Below, piece by piece: positions 20,658-45,818 of a stretch of DNA of 64,000 nt. The translations under genes and the position numbers were made by a program. Position 1 is the stretch's first letter. The number at the start of each line of letters is the position of its first letter. The DNA is taken from assembly GCA_963805625.1 (NCBI GenBank), contig CAWDVE010000010.1, positions 1,312,001 through 1,376,000 of the forward strand. Direction: 5' to 3'. The notes beneath the pieces were generated by a model. It made no database searches and had not been told where the DNA came from. It was given only the letters and a program-made list of their open reading frames with translations. Source of the stretch: an uncultured Candidatus Rokubacteria bacterium. GTDB lineage: Bacteria > Methylomirabilota > Methylomirabilia > Rokubacteriales > DASRDR01.

Positions 20658-20808
20658 TCATCGCCAGGCGAGCGCGGTCACCCCGAAGGCCAGAAGAACC
20701 AGTCCCGACAGTCGGTTGACCCAGCAAAGGGCGCCCAGATCCAGGCGCGCGGAGGGCGCTGACGGCCCCGTTCAGCATCAGCCACCAGAGGGCCGAGCCC
20801 AGGAAGTC
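20658..20808 (-). pseudogene. lysE: 3' fragment of a LysE-family translocator (one frameshift near 20747)
   Basis: Reads DFLGSALWWLMLNGAVSALRA, then in a shifted frame LDLGALCWVNRLSGLVLLAFGVTALAWR*; this is a LysE/RhtB C-terminus. Confidence 0.85.
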
Positions 20809-20816
20809 GGTCGACG

Positions 20817-20832
20817 TGGCATGGTTTGTGCT
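20817..20832 (+). promoter_or_regulatory. Sigma54-type -24/-12 promoter
   Basis: TGGCATGGTTTGTGCT = GG-N10-GC; the expected +1 falls on the ATG at 20844. Confidence 0.6.
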
Positions 20833-20843
20833 CCCTCCCGGCC

Positions 20844-21032
20844 ATGAATCCCAAGCGCCAGTCGGTGGCCGAAGCCGACGTATTCCGCGTGCTGACCGAC
20901 CTTCGGAAGGCTGAGCTCGTCCTGGCGACGAACATCGAAAGCACCCCTCCGGATCTCGTTCAGGCGGCGCACCTGGCCGCGATCCGCGCGGCCATCGCCA
21001 AGCTCCACCTGTTCTTCGCCTCGCCCAACTGA
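20844..21032 (+). CDS. Small helical hypothetical protein (62 aa), paralogue A
   Basis: MNPKRQSVAEADVFRV..LRKAE..PD..AIRAAI; aligns with 21240-21443. Confidence 0.7.
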   Translation: MNPKRQSVAEADVFRVLTDLRKAELVLATNIESTPPDLVQAAHLAAIRAAIAKLHLFFASPN

Positions 21033-21075
21033 GCCTCCCCCTCACCGCTCCAGGGCCGTCATCCGCAGTGGGGAA

Positions 21076-21102
21076 GGAGCCCGGGGATCGCCCCGGGGCT
21101 CC
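21076..21102. terminator. GC-rich hairpin downstream of paralogue A
   Basis: GGAGCCCGGGG-atcg-CCCCGGGGCTCC (one bulge); no U-tract. Confidence 0.4.
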
Positions 21103-21211
21103 GTGGTCGCGGCCATTTCAACCACCTGCGAGGTCATTTCAGCCCCGGCCCGCGTGCTCGCGGCCGGCGATCATGGCGTCCTCCCGTTGACGGCGGCGCG
21201 CCTCCACGCGG

Positions 21212-21227
21212 CGGCATCGCCCGTGCT
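21212..21227 (+). promoter_or_regulatory. Sigma54-type -24/-12 promoter
   Basis: CGGCATCGCCCGTGCT = GG-N10-GC, in the same position relative to the start codon as for paralogue A. Confidence 0.55.
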
Positions 21228-21239
21228 ACCCTCGGCGCC

Positions 21240-21443
21240 GTGGAGTCCCCGCGCCTCCAGTCGGCCACGGAAGCCGGCGCCTACCGCCTCCTGCGCGAGG
21301 CCCTCCTCGAACTGCGGCAGGCCGAGCGGACCCTGACGATCCTCGAAGAGGCCGCGCCGGATGTGGAGCGTGCCCTCCTCCTGGTCGCGATCCGGGCGGC
21401 GATCGTCCAACTCGAGGTCTACGTGCGACCGCTGCCGGGCTGA
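21240..21443 (+). CDS. Small helical hypothetical protein (67 aa), paralogue B
   Basis: MESPRLQSATEAGAYRL..LRQAE..PD..AIRAAI; aligns with 20844-21032. Confidence 0.7.
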   Translation: MESPRLQSATEAGAYRLLREALLELRQAERTLTILEEAAPDVERALLLVAIRAAIVQLEVYVRPLPG

Positions 21444-21547
21444 GCCTGCGCGGCAAGCTTCATCAACGCGCCCGCTCCCCCTCGATAGCCCACTCGGCGC
21501 GCGCGGGCTCTCACAGCTCCAGCGCCGCCATCCGCGCGGGCGGCGAT

Positions 21548-21835
21548 CATGGCGTCGCCGCCGGTCTCGCCCGCGCCGGGTCAGCGCGAGGCCGACCAGC
21601 GCCAGCGTCTGGAACGTGGCACTCGCCGGCCCCGGCACGGGGGTGGCGTCGGTCGTGGGCGTCTCCTGGGTGATGAGGGTGACCCCGGCGTGGGCGCCCC
21701 GCACTCGCGGCAGAGCACCCACTCGCCGTCGAGGTGCCGATACACCACGCCCGAGGAGAGTTGCAGGGTGTCGCCGTCGTGGTACCAGCCGAGCGCGGCC
21801 CAATCAATCTCCACCGTCGTCTCTCCGCTTGGCAT
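21548..21835 (-). pseudogene. Frameshifted hypothetical protein with a PEP-CTERM-like tail
   Basis: MPSGETTVEIDW..CRECGAPTP, then after a shift in the run near 21683 VTLITQETPTTDATPVPGPASATFQTLALVGLALTRRGR; ends approximate. Confidence 0.4.
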
Positions 21836-21906
21836 CGTTTACCGCTTTCCGCATCGTTCGCTCACCGCCCCGGCGGTGTTTCACGCACCGCGCGGGCGGC
21901 ATCCTT

Positions 21907-22208
21907 GCTACGAACCTCTCGGCTGGTCTTCTGACAGGGTTCCTTTCACCGTCGCCGAGAGAGTCGTCGAACCGGAGAGCAAGATCTCAATGAACCCCCC
22001 TGTAATGCGACCCCGGCGTCACGATTCAACCGGACCCAGCCCGATGCTCTATGCCTCGGAGCATCAGTGTCGTCAGCCGCCGGAGCTCGGCGGCCTCCGC
22101 CTGCAACTCTCGGGCGCTCGTCCGATAGTAGAGCCATGACACCAGCCACGTGATCAGCCCGCCGAGAAGGACGCTGACGCCGGTCGACACCCACGAATTC
22201 ATCATCAC
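21907..22208 (-). pseudogene. Small single-TM hypothetical protein with two apparent frameshifts
   Basis: TM helix then LRRLTTLMLRGIE / SGWVRLNRDA / GRITGGFIEILLSGSTTLSATVKG..* across three frames; ATG overlaps the XRE stop. Confidence 0.5.
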
Positions 22209-22420
22209 TCCAGCAGCGCCGTCACCGGCACGCCGAGGGCCTTGGCGAGGCGCTGGAGGATCACGATGCCGGGACTCTTGTTTCCGCGTGTCCCCGCCTC
22301 AAGCTGGGACAGGTACGGCTGAGAGACGCGCGCTTTCTTCGACAAAGCGGCCTGACTGAGTCTTTGAGTCTGGCGGAGCTTTCGCACCTTCACACCGAAC
22401 CTCACCCTCCGTGGACTCAT
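22205..22420 (-). CDS. XRE-family helix-turn-helix repressor
   Basis: LRQTQRLSQAALSKKARVSQPYLSQLEAG..PG...LQRLAKALGV (Cro/C1 HTH). Confidence 0.92.
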   Translation of the reverse strand: MSPRRVRFGVKVRKLRQTQRLSQAALSKKARVSQPYLSQLEAGTRGNKSPGIVILQRLAKALGVPVTALLE

Positions 22421-22422
22421 GT

Positions 22423-22448
22423 TATTGCAATCGCAATAGTCATGTCAA
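22423..22448 (-). promoter_or_regulatory. Sigma70 -35 box plus palindromic operator upstream of the XRE gene
   Basis: Minus-strand TTGACA (22443-22448) followed by the inverted repeat TATTGC-N4-GCAATA (22423-22438), in an AT-rich patch. Confidence 0.7.
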
Positions 22449-22466
22449 GGTCTCCATGGGCCTGGT

Positions 22467-22906
22467 CTAGCGGGTGCCTTCCAGCGCCTTGATCCACTCT
22501 TTGACGATGTTGCTCTCGCAGCCGCGGCTGGACATGTTCAACACCTCGGTGCCCGACTCATTGTCGATCAGTGTGATGTCATAGGTGACTGCGGCTCGAA
22601 GTTCGCGATGCAGACGTCGAACTGCTGCCATGCCACCAAGAGGCGGTACCGAGTTCGGAACGTGGCGAACTGCTCAAGCTGCGTCTGCTCACCCGTTGTG
22701 CCGCGAGTGACCTGAGGGCCCCGGTCGGTGGCCAAGCGCCATCCGCGCTGGGCTAGGGCATCCTTCAGGGCGCCGGTGAGGCCCCCGCCGGGCGGGACCG
22801 TCACGGTGCGGGTGGTTAGATCGACGGGTCCATAGGTGCGAACGCGATAGGAACCGCAGGCCGACAGGATGACGAGCGCCACCCCAAGGGTCAATATTCG
22901 TCGCAT
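22467..22906 (-). pseudogene. Hypothetical lipoprotein, one frameshift near 22591
   Basis: SD GGAGG, lipobox LSAC; after FEP a shifted frame continues VTYDITLIDNESGTEVLNMSSRGCESNIVKEWIKALEGTR*. Confidence 0.65.
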
Positions 22907-22910
22907 GGTT

Positions 22911-23196
22911 TCACTCCTCCACCACCGAGTTGGCATAGGCGATCCAGCGGTCGATCCGGCGCAGCCACTGGTGGAGATGCGGCGGACTGGTCCGGAAGGT
23001 GACCCGGGCGCCATCAAGCCCGAGGCGGCCGAGCTCCGGCGTGAACCGCGTCGTCGTCAGCCCGGGTGGCGGCCGGAGAAAGGCGGCGCGCCAGACCCGC
23101 GACGGAACCGCACTGAGTGCGACCTCGTAGAGCGCCAGGGGACGGCGTGGCCAGCGCGATCGGGTGGGGTGGACGCTGGACCCGGTGGATCGCCAC
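22911..23196 (-). pseudogene. Hypothetical protein, frameshifted near 23155
   Basis: MAIHRVQRPPHP, then in a shifted frame PLALYEVALSAVPSRVWRAAFLRPP..RFTPELG..WLRRIDRWIAYANSVVEE*, stopping 4 nt before the next ATG. Confidence 0.5.
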
Positions 23197-23389
23197 GACC
23201 GTCAGCGCGGCTCAGGGGGCCTGTACCGCCGGAGCGGGTTCACAGTCTGATCGGGCTCCCAGATCGGTACGAGAAGCCATCAGCCATCACCGACAAGGAC
23301 GGGTACGTCCTCGGTATTGCAGCCACACCACAGGATCGCGGGACCTCGGAGAACTCCAACGATGTGCCGCAGGAACGAGTTGTGGAGCG

Positions 23390-24103
23390 TCATTGCTGAG
23401 CAGATCGGGCGCCACGGCGCCACGCGAGCGCGCCGAGCGTCAGCAGACCGCATGCCGTGAGCAGCACGGTCGACGGCTCCGACACCCGCTGCCGGAACAA
23501 CAAAATATCGAAAGCACCAACCCGATCGCGCTCACCGAGGCTGATCGTTTTCTCCATCACTCCGCCGCCACGGTCCGGCAGGTGTTCGACGATGCCGAGC
23601 GCATGACCGATCTCGTGTTTCGCTACGGTGAGGAAGTCGGTCGTTAGCGCGGGTGGCTCGCCTGCGTCGTCCGTCGCCGGAGTCGGATCGAGGAACCACT
23701 GAAGCAACGTGTTGAAGTAGATCTCCCCCTCGGGGAAGTCGGGGGAGTTTCTCGGCGGAGATGGGTACTGCCCCGCCGCCCAGCCGCCTTGAGGGACGGT
23801 GACGCCCGGGATATCTAAGAGATCGTTCGGGGCGCCCACCTCGCCGAACCTCTTGAAGAGATCCGCGTCCTCCCACCGGAGCGTCCAGGTGCCGAGCACC
23901 TGATCGAAGTTCTCGATGAAAGTCTTCCACTCCGAGAGGGCCTCGTTGACGATCGCTTTCTCGGCCTCAGTCCACGGCTTGGCAGGGTGGCCGGCGGTCG
24001 TGCCGGCGTCACCCGGGTTGACGAAGATGACCCCGGCGCGCGCCGGATGCGTGCCGAGCGTGAGTGTCGAGAGGAGAGCAAGGAGAAGGATCGTGGAGAT
24101 CAT
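23390..24103 (-). CDS. Exported metzincin (matrixin-like) metalloprotease with a PEP-CTERM-type sorting tail
   Basis: Signal peptide, HEIGHALGIVEH, Met-turn VM, C-terminal VSEPSTVLLTACGLLTLGALAWRR. Confidence 0.85.
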   Translation of the reverse strand: MISTILLLALLSTLTLGTHPARAGVIFVNPGDAGTTAGHPAKPWTEAEKAIVNEALSEWKTFIENFDQVLGTWTLRWEDADLFKRFGEVGAPNDLLDIPGVTVPQGGWAAGQYPSPPRNSPDFPEGEIYFNTLLQWFLDPTPATDDAGEPPALTTDFLTVAKHEIGHALGIVEHLPDRGGGVMEKTISLGERDRVGAFDILLFRQRVSEPSTVLLTACGLLTLGALAWRRGARSAQQ

Positions 24104-24146
24104 AACCGGCCCCCTTCAGGGATGGCTGTGCGTGAGTCGCATCGGG

Positions 24147-24161
24147 GCAACCTCGCGGCCA
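24147..24161 (-). promoter_or_regulatory. Sigma54-type promoter of the PEP-CTERM protease
   Basis: TGGCCGCGAGGTTGC = TGGC-N7-TTGC, 43 nt upstream of the ATG. Confidence 0.65.
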
Positions 24162-24222
24162 CACGTCCAGCAAGCGCGAGTCGGCCGCGGGCGGCCGGTG
24201 GCGTCGAGCCGGATGGGAGGCG

Positions 24223-25224
24223 TCACTGGATGATCTGGTCCGCTCGGGCCAGGATCGAAGGCGCGATCGTCAGGCCCAGCGCCTTGGCAGTCTTCAGGTT
24301 CACGAACAGGTCAAACTTCGTCGGCTGCTCGACGGGCATGTCGCCGGGCTTCGCCCCCTTGAGGATCTTGTCGACGAACGTCGCGGCGCGCCGCCGAACG
24401 TCGAGCGGGTTCGAGTAGTAGGACATGAGGCCGCCTTCCTCCACCGCATCCCCGTCGTCGTACATCGTGGGCAGGCGGTTCCGGGCCGCGAACTCCAAGA
24501 TGAGGTTAAAGTGCTCGCTGTTGATGGCGCTCCCAAACAGGAAGAGCCCGTCGGCGCGCTCCCGGGTGATGGCCGCCAGGGCCGCCGTCAGCTCGGCCAG
24601 CGTCCTGGCGTCATGGGGCAGGAGCGTCATCCCGAGCTTCGGTGCCACGCGCCGCTGGACGCGGACGTAGGGGTCATAGAGGTTCTCGCTCGAGTACAGC
24701 ACCGCCACCCGCGAGATCCTGGGCACGGCCTCCTTGAAGAGCTCGAGCGCCTCACCGGCGATCTCGAGCTCCGGACTTGAGGTCACCCCAGTCACGTTCC
24801 CGCCGGGCCGGGCGAAGCTCGCCACGAGCCCCCGCCCGACCGGGTCGGCGCTCCCGATGAAGACGATGGGGATCGTGGCCGTCGCCGCCTTGGCGGCTTT
24901 GGCGCTCGTCGAGTTCGCGGCCACGATGACGTCGACCTGGAGCGCGACCAGCTCGGCCGCGAGGGCTGGAAGCCGATCGACCTTCGACTCCGCGAAGCGA
25001 CTCTCGATGACCAAGTCCCGCCCCTCGACGTAGCCCAATTCAAAGAGTCCCTGTCGGAAGGCCACGACGTTAGTCCGGGGGCTGGGCGGTCCGAAGACTG
25101 GGGGCTGGCCGGTGTGCAGAAACCCGATGCGGTGGACCTTTCCCGTCGGCTGGGCCTCGGCGGCGAGCGGCGCGACGAGGAGGGCCAGGACGAGAACCGT
25201 GGTCGTGAACCGGGCAAGCCTCAT
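24223..25224 (-). CDS. Orphan ABC transporter substrate-binding protein (ABC_sub_bind family)
   Basis: AEAQP.GKV.RIGFL, LGYVEG, TIPIVF, DPV..GLVAS.ARPGGNVTG, KILKGAKPGD.PVEQPTKF. Confidence 0.93.
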   Translation of the reverse strand: MRLARFTTTVLVLALLVAPLAAEAQPTGKVHRIGFLHTGQPPVFGPPSPRTNVVAFRQGLFELGYVEGRDLVIESRFAESKVDRLPALAAELVALQVDVIVAANSTSAKAAKAATATIPIVFIGSADPVGRGLVASFARPGGNVTGVTSSPELEIAGEALELFKEAVPRISRVAVLYSSENLYDPYVRVQRRVAPKLGMTLLPHDARTLAELTAALAAITRERADGLFLFGSAINSEHFNLILEFAARNRLPTMYDDGDAVEEGGLMSYYSNPLDVRRRAATFVDKILKGAKPGDMPVEQPTKFDLFVNLKTAKALGLTIAPSILARADQIIQ

Positions 25225-25490
25225 GAAATCCTCCTGTCGTCCAGCACCCGGAGCGCCGACTCAAGGAACCGCCGGAGTTCGGCGTCGCGCGCCGCCAGCC
25301 GGGCGGCCCGGTCTCGTCGATGGAGCGCGGCCCGGCAGCGCCCGGAGCAGACCCGTTGCCCCTCGCGGGGCGGCGCCCCCTCCGGTTGGAGCGGCCGGCC
25401 ACAGACCGGGCACCGCGGGTCCGAGGGTACTACGGGCGGGGCCGGCGTACGTACGCCGCCTGGGCGGCCTGGCGTCCGTCTGGGAACCAT
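25221..25490 (-). CDS. Small zinc-ribbon protein (CxxC..CSxxC) with a coiled-coil tail
   Basis: CPVCGRPL..CSGRCR; stop overlaps the next ATG (ATGA). Confidence 0.65.
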   Translation of the reverse strand: MVPRRTPGRPGGVRTPAPPVVPSDPRCPVCGRPLQPEGAPPREGQRVCSGRCRAALHRRDRAARLAARDAELRRFLESALRVLDDRRIS

Positions 25491-25542
25491 TCTGGGTGAT
25501 CTCCTTACCGGGCCGCGCGCGCCCTGCGGGAGCCGGACGCGG

Positions 25543-25683
25543 TCACGACGGCGACTCCTGGAAGCCGCAGCGCGGGCGCTTCCCCTTCTTCACTTGGGGA
25601 CCCGTCGTCGCCGTCGTCACGCTGTTCTTCGGCGGCGTGTAGTACGGGGTCGGGGTCGGTTTGGGATAACTCGGGCCGCCCAT
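25543..25683 (-). CDS. Small Pro/Thr/Lys-rich protein
   Basis: MGGPSYPKPTPTPYYTPPK..., starting 2 nt after the upstream stop; the 3' end may be frameshifted. Confidence 0.45.
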   Translation of the reverse strand: MGGPSYPKPTPTPYYTPPKNSVTTATTGPQVKKGKRPRCGFQESPS

Positions 25684-25685
25684 GG

Positions 25686-26423
25686 TCAGCGCCGCGCCGT
25701 CGGCGGATCGGCCGGCCACCGCTGCCGCAAGGTTGCGGCATGCTTCGCCCCAAAGTTCTCCGCCACCTTCTGGATCGCGGCCTCGCGGTCCAGGTCGTAG
25801 TACCCCGCAAACTGCTGAATCATCTTCACCGCATTCCCGAGCCCGCTGCCATCGAGCGCCGTCTTGAGCCGGGTCTCCAACTCCGGCGCCAGGCTCTTCA
25901 CCACGCTGAGCACGCGCATCCCTTTCCCGAGCGTCTGCCGGGCCGCGTCCGCCAACCCCTCCGCCTTGATCAACGCGTCCAAGGCCTCGCGGTCGGTCGT
26001 CTGCACGACCCCGATCGCCGCCTCGGGCAGATCCTCCCGGAACCCGCGGATGTAATCCACGAGCGATTGCTGCACCGTGGCCGACACGCCCGCCGCCTGG
26101 CACACCTCGCCGACGACCCGCCCGGTCTCGGGGTCGAGACCCACCAGGGGCGCCGGCGCCGGTCCAGACACCCCGCTGGGCGCGGACGTCGTCCCGGAGA
26201 CCACCCGCAGGAGGCGGTCCATTTCTTCCAGCGCGCCGGGGGCGCCACGCCAGTAGGGGGACGAGGGATCGGCGCGGATCTGCTGGATCCTCTGCTCCGC
26301 CGCGACGCGATTCCCACTCCCACTCGGGGCGGGGGCGCGGGCGGCGGGGGCAAGGGCCGACCCGACGAGCCGCACGCGCTGGACGCCCCCCGGAGAGAGC
26401 TCGATCACCATCATGGTCGCCAC
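25686..26423 (-). CDS. Hypothetical protein with phage scaffolding-protein-like motifs
   Basis: SD AGGAGG; AEQRIQQIRADPSSPYW and LDGSGLGN..MIQ.F recall podovirus capsid-assembly proteins (from memory, not searched). Confidence 0.55.
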   Translation of the reverse strand: MATMMVIELSPGGVQRVRLVGSALAPAARAPAPSGSGNRVAAEQRIQQIRADPSSPYWRGAPGALEEMDRLLRVVSGTTSAPSGVSGPAPAPLVGLDPETGRVVGEVCQAAGVSATVQQSLVDYIRGFREDLPEAAIGVVQTTDREALDALIKAEGLADAARQTLGKGMRVLSVVKSLAPELETRLKTALDGSGLGNAVKMIQQFAGYYDLDREAAIQKVAENFGAKHAATLRQRWPADPPTARR

Positions 26424-26531
26424 CTCCTGCTCGCCCTGTATCAGGACGCGCCGAGGGGGCGATCTGGGGAAAACCAGGGTGGCTCGGGTCGCTGGGGGCC
26501 GAGGGCACTCCGGGCCGCGGAGCCGGCGACG

Positions 26532-27266
26532 TTACAGCGGGTCGACCCCCCGGGCGAGGCGGGTGAGGTTGGGACGTTCCGCCGCGAGGAAGGCACGGAG
26601 CGTCTTCCGGTCGAGATGGGCGCGCCGGGCCGCTTCCGCCTGAGACGTGTGGTCCTGGTACAAGCACGTCAGCGCCACGGCCTTCCGGGCCCCGAGGCGC
26701 CCCCGGCCGGCGATGCGGGCCAGGTAGGCGCCCCATCGCGCGGCGCGCGCCGTCCCCTCGACGCGGGGGACGAGCTCCTGCTCCGGGTCCAGGATCTCCT
26801 CGACGGTCGCCTCGAGATCCGGCACGGTGAGCGCTTGCCGCTGCTCGCGCTGCCGCGTGCGCCGGATGCGCGCCTGCTCGGCATTGGTGACATGCCAAAT
26901 CGCCCACGTCGGCTCTAGTCGGATGGCCGGGAGATACTCGACGCGGGCGCGGCGGAGGTCCTCGAGGAAGCCTCGTTCGAGCGCGGCGTCCCACTCCGGG
27001 CGCGCCGGCCCCTGGAGCATCCGCCGCACGGGACTACTCGCGATCCAGTGCGCGGATCGACGCCGTGGCGTCACCTCGAGGTAGCGGGTCAATCGCTCCA
27101 GCACCCGACCCGCGAGCTCGGCGCGCTGCTCGGCCGTGCGCCACAGCCCCTTCTTGTAGAGCGCGAAGAGAAACGGCTGCAGGAGGCGCGCCGGGGGCTG
27201 CGACGCGTCCACCGCGGTCCGCACCTGGTCGAGGATCGAGGCGTCGCGGCGCCGCCGTACCTCGGC
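26532..27266 (-). CDS. Protein with a C-terminal HTH (sigma region 4 / late-activator-like), 5' end joined in frame to the lysE fragment
   Basis: SQAEAARRAHLDRKTLR HTH; no start or SD of its own at the junction. Confidence 0.6.
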   Translation of the reverse strand, partial: AEVRRRRDASILDQVRTAVDASQPPARLLQPFLFALYKKGLWRTAEQRAELAGRVLERLTRYLEVTPRRRSAHWIASSPVRRMLQGPARPEWDAALERGFLEDLRRARVEYLPAIRLEPTWAIWHVTNAEQARIRRTRQREQRQALTVPDLEATVEEILDPEQELVPRVEGTARAARWGAYLARIAGRGRLGARKAVALTCLYQDHTSQAEAARRAHLDRKTLRAFLAAERPNLTRLARGVDPL

Positions 27267-27566
27267 GGTGACGAGAACCGTTGCCTCCCGCCAGCTTCCC
27301 GCACCCGCGATCCCCAGGCCGGCAAAGACGGCCACGAAGGAGAGGCGCAGGGCGCCCTGCTGCCGCACGAGGAGGCTGGAGACCGCCGTCAGTCCGAAAC
27401 CCGCGATGGCACCGTAAACGGCGCCCGCCGCGGCCGCCCCGAGACCCACCGCAAGCCCCGTCACGCGGCCGTCGGTGAGCGTCCGCCGGATGCACAGGAC
27501 ACCGATCGGGCCGACGGGCGCTGCGATGGAAAAGCCGATCACGACTCCTTGCAGGAGCGTCTCGAG
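27267..27566 (-). pseudogene. lysE: 5' fragment of a LysE-family translocator with an internal deletion
   Basis: GFSIAAPVGPIGVLCIRRTL..G..GLGAA..YGAIAGFG, then LRL joined directly to SFVAVFAGLG (TLTNP segment missing); no start codon visible. Confidence 0.88.
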
Positions 27567-45639: not shown

Positions 45640-45818
45640 CTACTTGCCGACTTCGTCCGCCCAGTAGTCGTAGAAATTGAACCACTGGTACGGAGCCATC
45701 AGACAGTATCGCTCCAACCGCCGCGCATAGTCGCCGGCCAGCGCATCCAGATCCTCGGGTCCCGTCACGACAACTCTCTCTGCGAACCGCTTGGCGAACG
45801 CTTCGTAGTGTCCATCCC
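45640..45818 (-). pseudogene. 3' remnant of an LpxL-like / lysophospholipid acyltransferase
   Basis: YARRLERYCLMAPYQWFNFYDYW C-terminal signature; only about 60 codons remain. Confidence 0.7.

What the first reader, a model, noticed from the sequence alone, without database searches (positions are those of the whole stretch)
20658..27566. lysE split almost codon-exactly by a 6.46-kb integrase-less insert
Seen: the lysE 5' half ends ..EATVLVT (27267), and the 3' half resumes DFLGSALWW (20808) on the same strand 6.46 kb away. Both junctions carry ACCG (plus-strand CGGT at 20808-20811 and 27266-27269). Joining there restores an in-frame LVT-DFLGSALWW, about one codon shorter than the usual LVxGVFLGS. 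The ORF track hides this by merging both halves into other ORFs. The insert has no integrase, transposase or terminal inverted repeats, and its right end cuts into an HTH gene. Inference: a fragment of phage or satellite DNA was captured by microhomology or illegitimate integration, or this is a non-autonomous element mobilised in trans.
Basis: partly seen in the sequence, partly recalled or inferred. Interest (0 to 1): 0.8.

Follow-up and report, generated by a model that had tools for sequence, protein, structure and literature searches.

The report
Mobile-element fragment lodged in dead lysE
A 6.5-kb middle piece of a small mobile element, without integrase or replication genes, splits an amino-acid exporter gene that is also broken elsewhere; it was likely pasted in once by error-prone DNA break repair and is likely a decaying fossil rather than an active element.

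Summary
The split is real. Same-genus genomes have an uninterrupted lysE here, and short-read contigs bridge both junctions, so this is no misassembly. Rejoining would not restore the gene: it also lacks its start codon, 147 internal bases and 2 bases in the 3' half.

The insert is the middle of a satellite-like element. 3.45 kb is 98.55% identical to a 14.2-kb element beside tRNA-Val on contig C13, which carries a tyrosine integrase, two excisionase-like genes and a primase-helicase. A 13-kb relative sits at tRNA-Leu. The insert stops about where the integrase lies in those relatives, and its other end removes roughly 80-120 residues of a sigma-like gene. Its ends are single-copy and show no tRNA att core, arm motifs or inverted repeats. 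The ACCG repeat is only weakly above chance (p about 0.02-0.04, post hoc).

Best explanation (0.6): one-off capture of a linear fragment at a DNA break, probably by the genome's Ku/LigD system. This is inferred, not shown. Mis-integration followed by loss of both ends (0.2) is not excluded. The mechanism is known; the donor family, with T7-like scaffold and internal-virion hints, is the more novel lead.

The parts
27266..27566 (-). lysE 5' remnant; start codon lost just upstream; fused in frame to the truncated sigma-like ORF (called as one 336-aa protein, P0001)
   Evidence: (PF01810 E 0.0016)
27342..27345 (-). scar of a 147-nt in-frame deletion in lysE at a 4-nt CCTC microhomology
   Evidence: covered without gaps by X2 record 15
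27266..27269 (+). right junction CGGT; homology to relatives' lysE begins exactly at 27266
20807..27265 (.). 6.46-kb insert: internal fragment of a tRNA-integrating satellite-like element, GC 0.69
26532..27265 (-). N-terminally truncated gene with a weak sigma-70/ECF-like C-terminal HTH; small family (7 clusters at 50% identity, including the window's own)
   Evidence: best E 0.066; TIGR02937 E 0.0027, below cut-off
25686..26423 (-). 245-aa ORF, 97% identical over residues 25-245 to the C13 copy; short motif shared with a T7-scaffold-like protein of the tRNA-Leu element; scaffold role is only a lead
25543..25719 (-). short ORF shared with both sister elements
25221..25490 (-). small zinc-finger-like ORF (DUF2116, weak)
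   Evidence: E 0.0022
24223..25224 (-). ABC_sub_bind substrate-binding protein (cargo; large paralogue family in this genome)
   Evidence: E 4e-51; 56 tblastn hits
23390..24103 (-). secreted matrixin-like (M10) protein (cargo)
   Evidence: PF00413 E 3.6e-5
22911..26357 (.). block 98.55% identical to G000 C13:2904-6351, inside the tRNA-Val element
22911..23196 (-). small conserved island gene, frameshifted here by one extra base relative to the C13 copy
22467..22906 (-). lipoprotein-like gene in two frames (likely frameshifted; an X2 contig has one more base at 22592)
22205..22420 (-). XRE-type HTH regulator, homologous to those of the sister elements
22026..22205 (-). small membrane protein ORF
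21550..21835 (-). likely frameshifted gene; its N-terminal part is homologous to the 96-aa gene lying between HTH and integrase in the tRNA-Leu element
   Evidence: 50% identity over 36 aa, E 4e-10
21240..21443 (+). 67-aa ORF, paralogue of the next one; family scattered in islands of the genus
20844..21032 (+). 62-aa ORF beginning about 35 nt inside the left junction
20808..20811 (+). left junction CGGT; lysE homology ends at 20806
20658..20806 (-). lysE 3' remnant with a 2-nt deletion near 20745
   Evidence: covered without gaps by X1 record 4 and X2 record 10; the 2 nt are present in X14 and X15

Best explanation
The insert is the middle 6.46 kb of a tRNA-integrating, likely phage-satellite-type element, sitting in a lysE pseudogene, and it was likely joined in once, as a linear fragment, by error-prone repair of a DNA break, most likely by the cell's Ku/LigD end-joining system. 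Inferred steps: (1) a relative of the C13 tRNA-Val element entered or was induced in an ancestor and was fragmented; (2) a break in lysE was sealed onto both fragment ends, losing 4-8 lysE bases and using a short microhomology at the right end, where lysE Val-Ala meets the donor gene's x-Ala-Glu-Val; (3) three other LysE genes made the loss tolerable, so the insert persisted in one lineage, cannot excise by itself, and is collecting frameshifts. Shown: the split, the empty site in relatives, the donor family, the cut gene, and the presence of Ku and LigD. Not shown: the enzyme, and the order of the lysE lesions.
For: - Empty site: intact 201-202-aa lysE with the same neighbours in 4 of the 14 relative loci read, and insert-free damaged alleles in 3 more; only 4 nt are missing at the junction.
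- Donor: the 3,449-nt block at 98.55% lies within C13:1-14204, which has an integrase, HTH_17 proteins and Prim-Pol/AAA_25 and abuts tRNA-Val(CAC). Gene order is collinear.
- The HTH-to-left-end distance (1.4 kb) is close to the HTH-to-integrase distance in both sisters (about 1.3-1.5 kb).
- The right end is mid-gene; the sequence at the left end does not supply the missing N-terminus (reading frames compared by eye).
- The ends have no other copy in the assembly, no tRNA match above 8-9 nt, and none of the sisters' arm motifs.
- Intact-looking Ku (TIGR02772, 298 bits) lies beside a three-domain LigD (TIGR02776, 553 bits), with a second Ku.
- Lab precedent: NHEJ captures foreign DNA in breaks in Sinorhizobium (PMC6379672); inserts of 30 bp to 18.8 kb at healed breaks in Streptomyces (PMC5869714).
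- 7 of 26 large indels against G013 show 3-10-nt overlaps.
- Three other full-length LysE matches in the genome.
Against: - Nothing ties the event to Ku/LigD specifically; having these genes is common in soil bacteria (my knowledge).
- The left junction echoes the sequence before the right junction (8 of 9 nt, one gap; p 0.03-0.04). End-joining does not predict this, and a recombinase core or a decayed target duplication would.
- The exact donor was not found, so microhomology at either end cannot be read directly. No locus with the full-length sigma-like gene came back.
- The left end falls just where the integrase would begin, which could reflect a non-random cut.
- It is the only such gain in 428 kb compared with G013, so there is no pattern to generalise from.
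Confidence: 0.6

Rival explanations
1. A complete element integrated into lysE at a secondary att site. It then lost its replication end and its integrase end by two deletions that reused the att half-sites (integrase acting on internal pseudo-sites), leaving the middle.
For: The same ACCG (8-of-9 gapped) motif occurs at both junctions. Gene order matches an integrated element with both outer modules removed. Deletions at short repeats are frequent in this lineage.
Against: It needs two deletions that each stop within 4-8 nt of the insertion point. No arm motif or tRNA-like core remains at either end. No intermediate appears in the 21 family genomes searched or the 8 runs laid.
Confidence: 0.2
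2. Replication template switching: a stalled fork in lysE jumped by microhomology onto a replicating satellite copy, copied 6.46 kb, and jumped back a few bases downstream, with no end-joining enzyme involved.
For: It explains short homologies at both junctions and the small loss of target bases. The donor family encodes its own primase-helicase.
Against: Multi-kb double switches onto a foreign molecule have less bacterial precedent than end-joining capture (my knowledge; one search listed only a microindel-scale SPDIR paper, seen as a listing). Sequence alone cannot separate this from the best explanation.
Confidence: 0.12
3. The 6.46 kb is a discrete non-autonomous unit that a trans-acting recombinase inserts and excises at an ACCG core.
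For: The 4-nt direct repeat, and an in-frame join at it. About 20% of marine VEIME satellites lack an identified integrase (PMC9618062 passage). The genome has several integrases.
Against: The ends are single-copy. One end truncates a gene and a circle would not rebuild it. There is no replication gene. At least two cargo genes look frameshifted. No circle joint is listed. Relatives' empty site is not the simple ACCG join.
Confidence: 0.07
4. Assembly chimera.
For: The genome bin has 6.26% contamination, and no listed contig spans the whole insert.
Against: The left junction is bridged by listed contigs in 4 of 8 runs from 4 studies, and the right junction in 2 of 8 runs from 2 studies, with 0-5 differing letters per contig. 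One of these runs may be the source sample.
Confidence: 0.01

Closest known systems
NHEJ (Ku/LigD) capture of DNA at chromosomal breaks (Sinorhizobium PMC6379672; Streptomyces PMC5869714; passages read)
   Same: Insert without its own recombinase, a few target bases lost, possible short microhomology, host with ku and ligD; inserts up to 18.8 kb were reported in Streptomyces.
   Different: Those were induced breaks with known donors. Here it is a natural, inherited event with no direct evidence of the enzyme.
Tycheposons (bioRxiv 10.1101/2020.12.28.424599; passages read): comparison applies to the sister elements
   Same: Integrated at tRNA genes with about 40-nt att duplications; integrase, excisionase, primase/helicase and cargo; degenerate remnants are common.
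   Different: Integrase phylogeny was not tested; the host here is not marine. The insert itself lies in a protein gene with no partial tRNA. Remnants in that paper accumulate in tRNA islands.
Phage satellites: PICI, PICMI, VEIME (PMC9618062 passages; PICI and PICMI gene sets recalled)
   Same: Sisters are 13-14 kb with tyrosine integrase, primase-helicase, excisionase-like and HTH genes. One has an internal virion protein (phrog_418, E 4.7e-15) and a scaffold-like protein.
   Different: No AlpA, terminase, portal or capsid hit among the sister proteins scanned. No helper phage, packaging or induction is shown. The insert lacks integrase and primase altogether.
IS or transposon insertion into a gene
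   Same: A gene is split with little target loss.
   Different: No transposase, no inverted repeats, no clean target duplication, single copy.

Membership tests
Autonomous integrative satellite/island (the insert itself) | own integrase | tested here: not met
   15 insert ORFs in Pfam, no recombinase; tblastn with the C13 integrase finds nothing in the window
Autonomous integrative satellite/island (the insert itself) | att direct repeats or partial tRNA at the ends | tested here: not met
   only a 4-nt (8-of-9 gapped) repeat; best exact tRNA match 8-9 nt; no tRNA in the window
Autonomous integrative satellite/island (the insert itself) | replication module (primase/helicase) | tested here: not met
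Non-autonomous transposon / MITE-like unit | terminal inverted repeats | tested here: not met
   best end-to-end match 5 nt in 60
Non-autonomous transposon / MITE-like unit | same ends at several loci | tested here: not met
   no other copy of 20812-21505 or 26358-27265 in the assembly
NHEJ capture scar | host encodes Ku and LigD | tested here: met
NHEJ capture scar | small target loss, no clean duplication, arbitrary donor ends | tested here: met
   4 nt lost; right end mid-gene
NHEJ capture scar | dependence on ku/ligD | not testable with these tools
   a historical event in a metagenome-assembled genome
Tycheposon/PICI-like satellite (sister elements) | tyrosine integrase and tRNA att site | tested here: met
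   PF00589; 39-bp repeat at tRNA-Leu; the C13 element abuts tRNA-Val, but its far att falls just off the contig end
Tycheposon/PICI-like satellite (sister elements) | excisionase and primase/helicase | tested here: met
   phrog_66, PF09250, PF13481
Tycheposon/PICI-like satellite (sister elements) | packaging or capsid-hijacking genes (terS, MCP, scaffold) | tested here: inconclusive
   no terS, capsid or portal hit in 9 C13 and 10 tRNA-Leu proteins scanned, not all ORFs; internal virion protein E 4.7e-15; Atlas 0.93-0.95 to viral hypotheticals, one cluster 16% PF05396
Tycheposon/PICI-like satellite (sister elements) | integrase in the family's clade | not tested
   no tree built
Tycheposon/PICI-like satellite (sister elements) | mobilisation by a helper phage | not testable with these tools
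   needs virion-fraction or induction data

The most novel reading that the evidence does not exclude
The insert is a natural scar of Ku/LigD capture of phage-satellite DNA. Its donor belongs to an undescribed family of 13-14-kb tRNA-integrating satellites of T7-like podophages, which carry their own capsid-scaffold-like and internal-virion proteins, in a soil/sediment lineage that I infer is Rokubacteriales. End-joining would then be salvaging satellite cargo into core genes.
Probability: 0.25. Interest if true: 0.6.

Novelty: new member of a known kind. Interest (0 to 1): 0.36.

Why it matters
Capture of DNA at bacterial chromosome breaks has been shown in the lab, and natural cases where the empty site, both junctions and the donor family can all be read are useful benchmarks. 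This one is single and looks neutral, so alone it does not settle how much end-joining contributes to gene transfer. The side result may be worth more: two near-complete integrated relatives outline a satellite-like family whose marker proteins were found in only 1 of 251 phylum genomes. The case is also an annotation warning, since the 336-aa protein called here is a lysE/sigma-like chimera.

Tried and rejected
- Paralogue confusion: rejected. Both halves match one syntenic gene; the three other LysE matches lie elsewhere.
- Misassembly: rejected.
- attP inside the sigma-like gene, with its N-terminus at the far end: rejected, no resemblance (by eye).
- C13 element as the direct donor: rejected; similarity stops at 22911 and 26357.
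- Context of the full-length sigma-like gene: not found. 0 of 20 other family genomes; one weak 34% hit over 94 residues, in a different gene context; none in viral contigs; none or one spurious in metagenome contigs; 0 of 250 other phylum genomes.
- 245-aa ORF: only its own cluster in the protein search; none in viral contigs; one marginal hit in 120 other genomes; single-sequence model pLDDT 47.7, not used for a fold search; Atlas top score 0.85 with low recognition, a lead only.
- Sisters' 257/249-aa protein: none in viral contigs; 0 of 250 other genomes.
- Fold search of the sigma-like ORF: no hit at E<=0.001.
- Window vs C13 copy: 13 synonymous and 11 non-synonymous codon changes in four ORFs; a fifth short ORF (0 and 3) was left out of that sum. 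Too few to order events.
- The G013 codon comparison was out of frame and is discarded.
- A general pattern of integrase-less gains: not seen. 26 large indels in 428 kb against G013; 9 inspected; none similar.
- Paper searches for satellite plus internal virion protein and satellite plus scaffolding protein plus podophage returned 0 papers.
- Earlier scan findings: none.
Full report
Observation. The two lysE halves and the CGGT pair are at the stated coordinates. A DNA search with the right flank over 40 relatives returned 14 loci other than the window's own, which I read. Four (G014, G010, G009, G005) have an intact 201-202-aa lysE between the same PNPOx-family gene and histidine kinase. Three (G013, G008, G001) have insert-free but damaged alleles, and G003 lacks lysE there. 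Six were uninformative because the fetched stretch did not reach lysE or had other neighbours. None carries the insert. Against G010 the 5' half runs to nt 454 and the 3' half resumes at nt 459, so 4 bases are missing. The remnants are 92-95% identical to G013, like the flanks at 95%, so the two halves are one gene.

The gene is dead for other reasons too. It has a 147-nt in-frame deletion at a CCTC microhomology and a 2-nt deletion in the 3' half, and its start codon is lost. Short-read contigs cover all three places without gaps (X2 record 15, X1 record 4, X3 record 24). Three other full-length LysE matches exist in the genome.

The junctions are real. Of 21 runs listed I laid 8. Listed contigs bridge the left junction in X1, X2, X3 and X5, from four studies, and the right junction in X1 and X2, from two studies. 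One of these may be the source sample, the contig tables are cut, and no listed contig spans the whole insert. X14 has a contig joining 20804 to 27357 with 148 letters between, where an intact gene would give about 244: an insert-free, itself shortened allele in a close relative. No circle joint is listed, but contigs drop rare forms and 15 joints were hidden.

What the insert is. Positions 22911-26357 are 98.55% identical over 3,449 nt to C13:2904-6351 of the same genome. That block lies in a 14.2-kb element running from tRNA-Val(CAC) to the contig start. It carries HTH_17 excisionase-like genes, a Prim-Pol/PriCT/AAA_25 protein, small unknown ORFs, the shared cargo, an XRE HTH and a tyrosine integrase. 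Its far att is not assembled; the related island on C25 has a 46-bp tRNA duplication exactly there. A second relative at C10:522476-535509 is bounded by a 39-bp repeat from tRNA-Leu(TAA). It has the same layout plus an internal virion protein (phrog_418, E 4.7e-15) and a 185-aa protein whose nearest Atlas clusters are viral hypotheticals (0.94-0.95), with one cluster at 0.93 that is 16% T7 capsid-assembly PF05396. The window's genes are collinear with the middle of both. No capsid, portal or terminase hit appeared in 9 C13 and 10 tRNA-Leu proteins scanned, which were not all their ORFs. The parts of the insert outside the shared block match only short HTH and motif pieces elsewhere in the assembly, so the donor was a third, mosaic relative.

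The ends. The right end cuts a gene whose homologues are 289-355 aa and run about 80-120 residues further upstream; they read Val-Ser/Ala-Ala-Glu-Val or Leu-Ser-Ala-Glu-Val where the window reads Val-Thr-Ala-Glu-Val. All five empty alleles read have G where the window has the A of ACCG. I infer a short microhomology join there, with the A possibly from the donor. The gene is weakly sigma-like (neither significant). The left end lies 1.4 kb from the HTH gene, about where the integrase starts in the sisters, just upstream of a small island gene whose homologues align only up to about 20828. There are no inverted repeats or sister arm motifs and no tRNA-like core. The resemblance between the two junctions is modest: about 2% for ACCG and 3-4% for the gapped 9-mer in random draws, chosen after the fact. 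Several cargo genes look frameshifted.

Mechanism. One event that joined a linear fragment to both sides of a break explains arbitrary donor ends and a 4-base target loss most simply. The genome has Ku beside a full LigD and a second Ku. End-joining has been shown to capture foreign DNA in Sinorhizobium (PMC6379672, passages), and inserts of 30 bp to 18.8 kb were found at healed breaks in Streptomyces (PMC5869714, passages). The enzyme is inferred, and I put this at 0.6. Mis-integration with later loss of both ends (0.2) explains the junction echo but needs two near-exact deletions. Template switching (0.12) cannot be told apart from sequence alone. A unit moved in trans (0.07) conflicts with single-copy, mid-gene ends.

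Is it a pattern? Comparing 22 stretches of G013 (428 kb, 349 kb aligned) gave 26 indels over 150 nt, 7 with 3-10-nt overlaps. The lysE insert is the only gain above 2 kb in this genome. Nine others inspected carry ordinary genes. It looks like a one-off in a deletion-prone lineage.

Comparison and novelty. The insert fails membership as an autonomous island or a MITE-like unit, and fits the profile of a break-repair capture scar. The sisters work like tycheposons or PICI-like satellites (bioRxiv 10.1101/2020.12.28.424599 and PMC9618062, passages), but membership was not tested by integrase phylogeny. Their 257/249-aa protein was found in 1 of 251 phylum genomes. Two paper searches for podophage satellites with scaffold or internal virion proteins gave no papers, and a search for Rokubacteria with prophage and integrase gave four listings. 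In one of them, PMC5712423 (passages), I saw only a general note of many integrases and prophage genes. The library lacks most subscription journals and I read no supplements, so absence from print is not established.

Verdict. Real and well supported as an observation. The mechanism is of a known kind and only inferred, and the insert is probably neutral. Interest 0.36, with the donor family as the lead to follow.

Noticed in passing
G000 C13:1-14204 (L001): Near-complete 14.2-kb satellite-like element beside tRNA-Val(CAC): integrase, two HTH_17 genes, Prim-Pol/AAA_25 and several ORFans; its matrixin-like gene is frameshifted.
   Followed up: yes
G000 C10:522476-535509 (L004): 13-kb relative whose 39-bp att repeat is the 5' part of tRNA-Leu(TAA), not the more usual 3' part (usual: recalled); it encodes an internal virion protein and a T7-scaffold-like protein.
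   Followed up: partly
G000 C13:14204-15840 and C25:1-1637: 1,637 bp are 100% identical on two contigs, including tRNA-Val(CAC), with different islands downstream: strain variants in the bin or tandem islands split by assembly.
   Followed up: partly
G000 C25:9704-11583 (L013:4705-6584): Stand-alone LigD phosphoesterase and LigD primase-polymerase genes ride inside the tRNA-Val island on C25.
   Followed up: no
window 22911-23196 and 22205-22420: A 94-aa gene of no Pfam family recurs at about eight places in this genome and in relatives, usually near an XRE HTH and an ABC_sub_bind gene, in islands with tyrosine or serine recombinases.
   Followed up: partly
lysE locus in G013, G008, G001, G003 and run X14: This lysE is damaged or lost in different ways in several members of the genus: frameshifts, deletions, absence.
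   Followed up: partly
window 26532-27542: The public protein set holds the lysE/sigma-like chimera as one 336-aa protein (P0001).
   Followed up: yes
G000 C11:155600-156730 (L007:2602-3732): Terminase small subunit (phrog_51, E 1e-25) beside an HTH/ABC island: another phage or satellite remnant.
   Followed up: no
G000 C21:1000-14290 (L005): Another island at tRNA-Val(TAC) with integrase, excisionase-like genes and a helicase.
   Followed up: no
G000, ten tRNA genes: 10 of 64 tRNA/tmRNA calls have a downstream duplicate of their 3' part (14-47 nt), marking many integrated islands; the shortest may be chance.
   Followed up: partly
window near 45,800 (G000 C10:1357819): A 5.2-kb stretch with acyltransferase/ACP/glycosyltransferase-like genes (read by eye) present in G013 is missing here, leaving a 42-aa gene stub.
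   Followed up: partly
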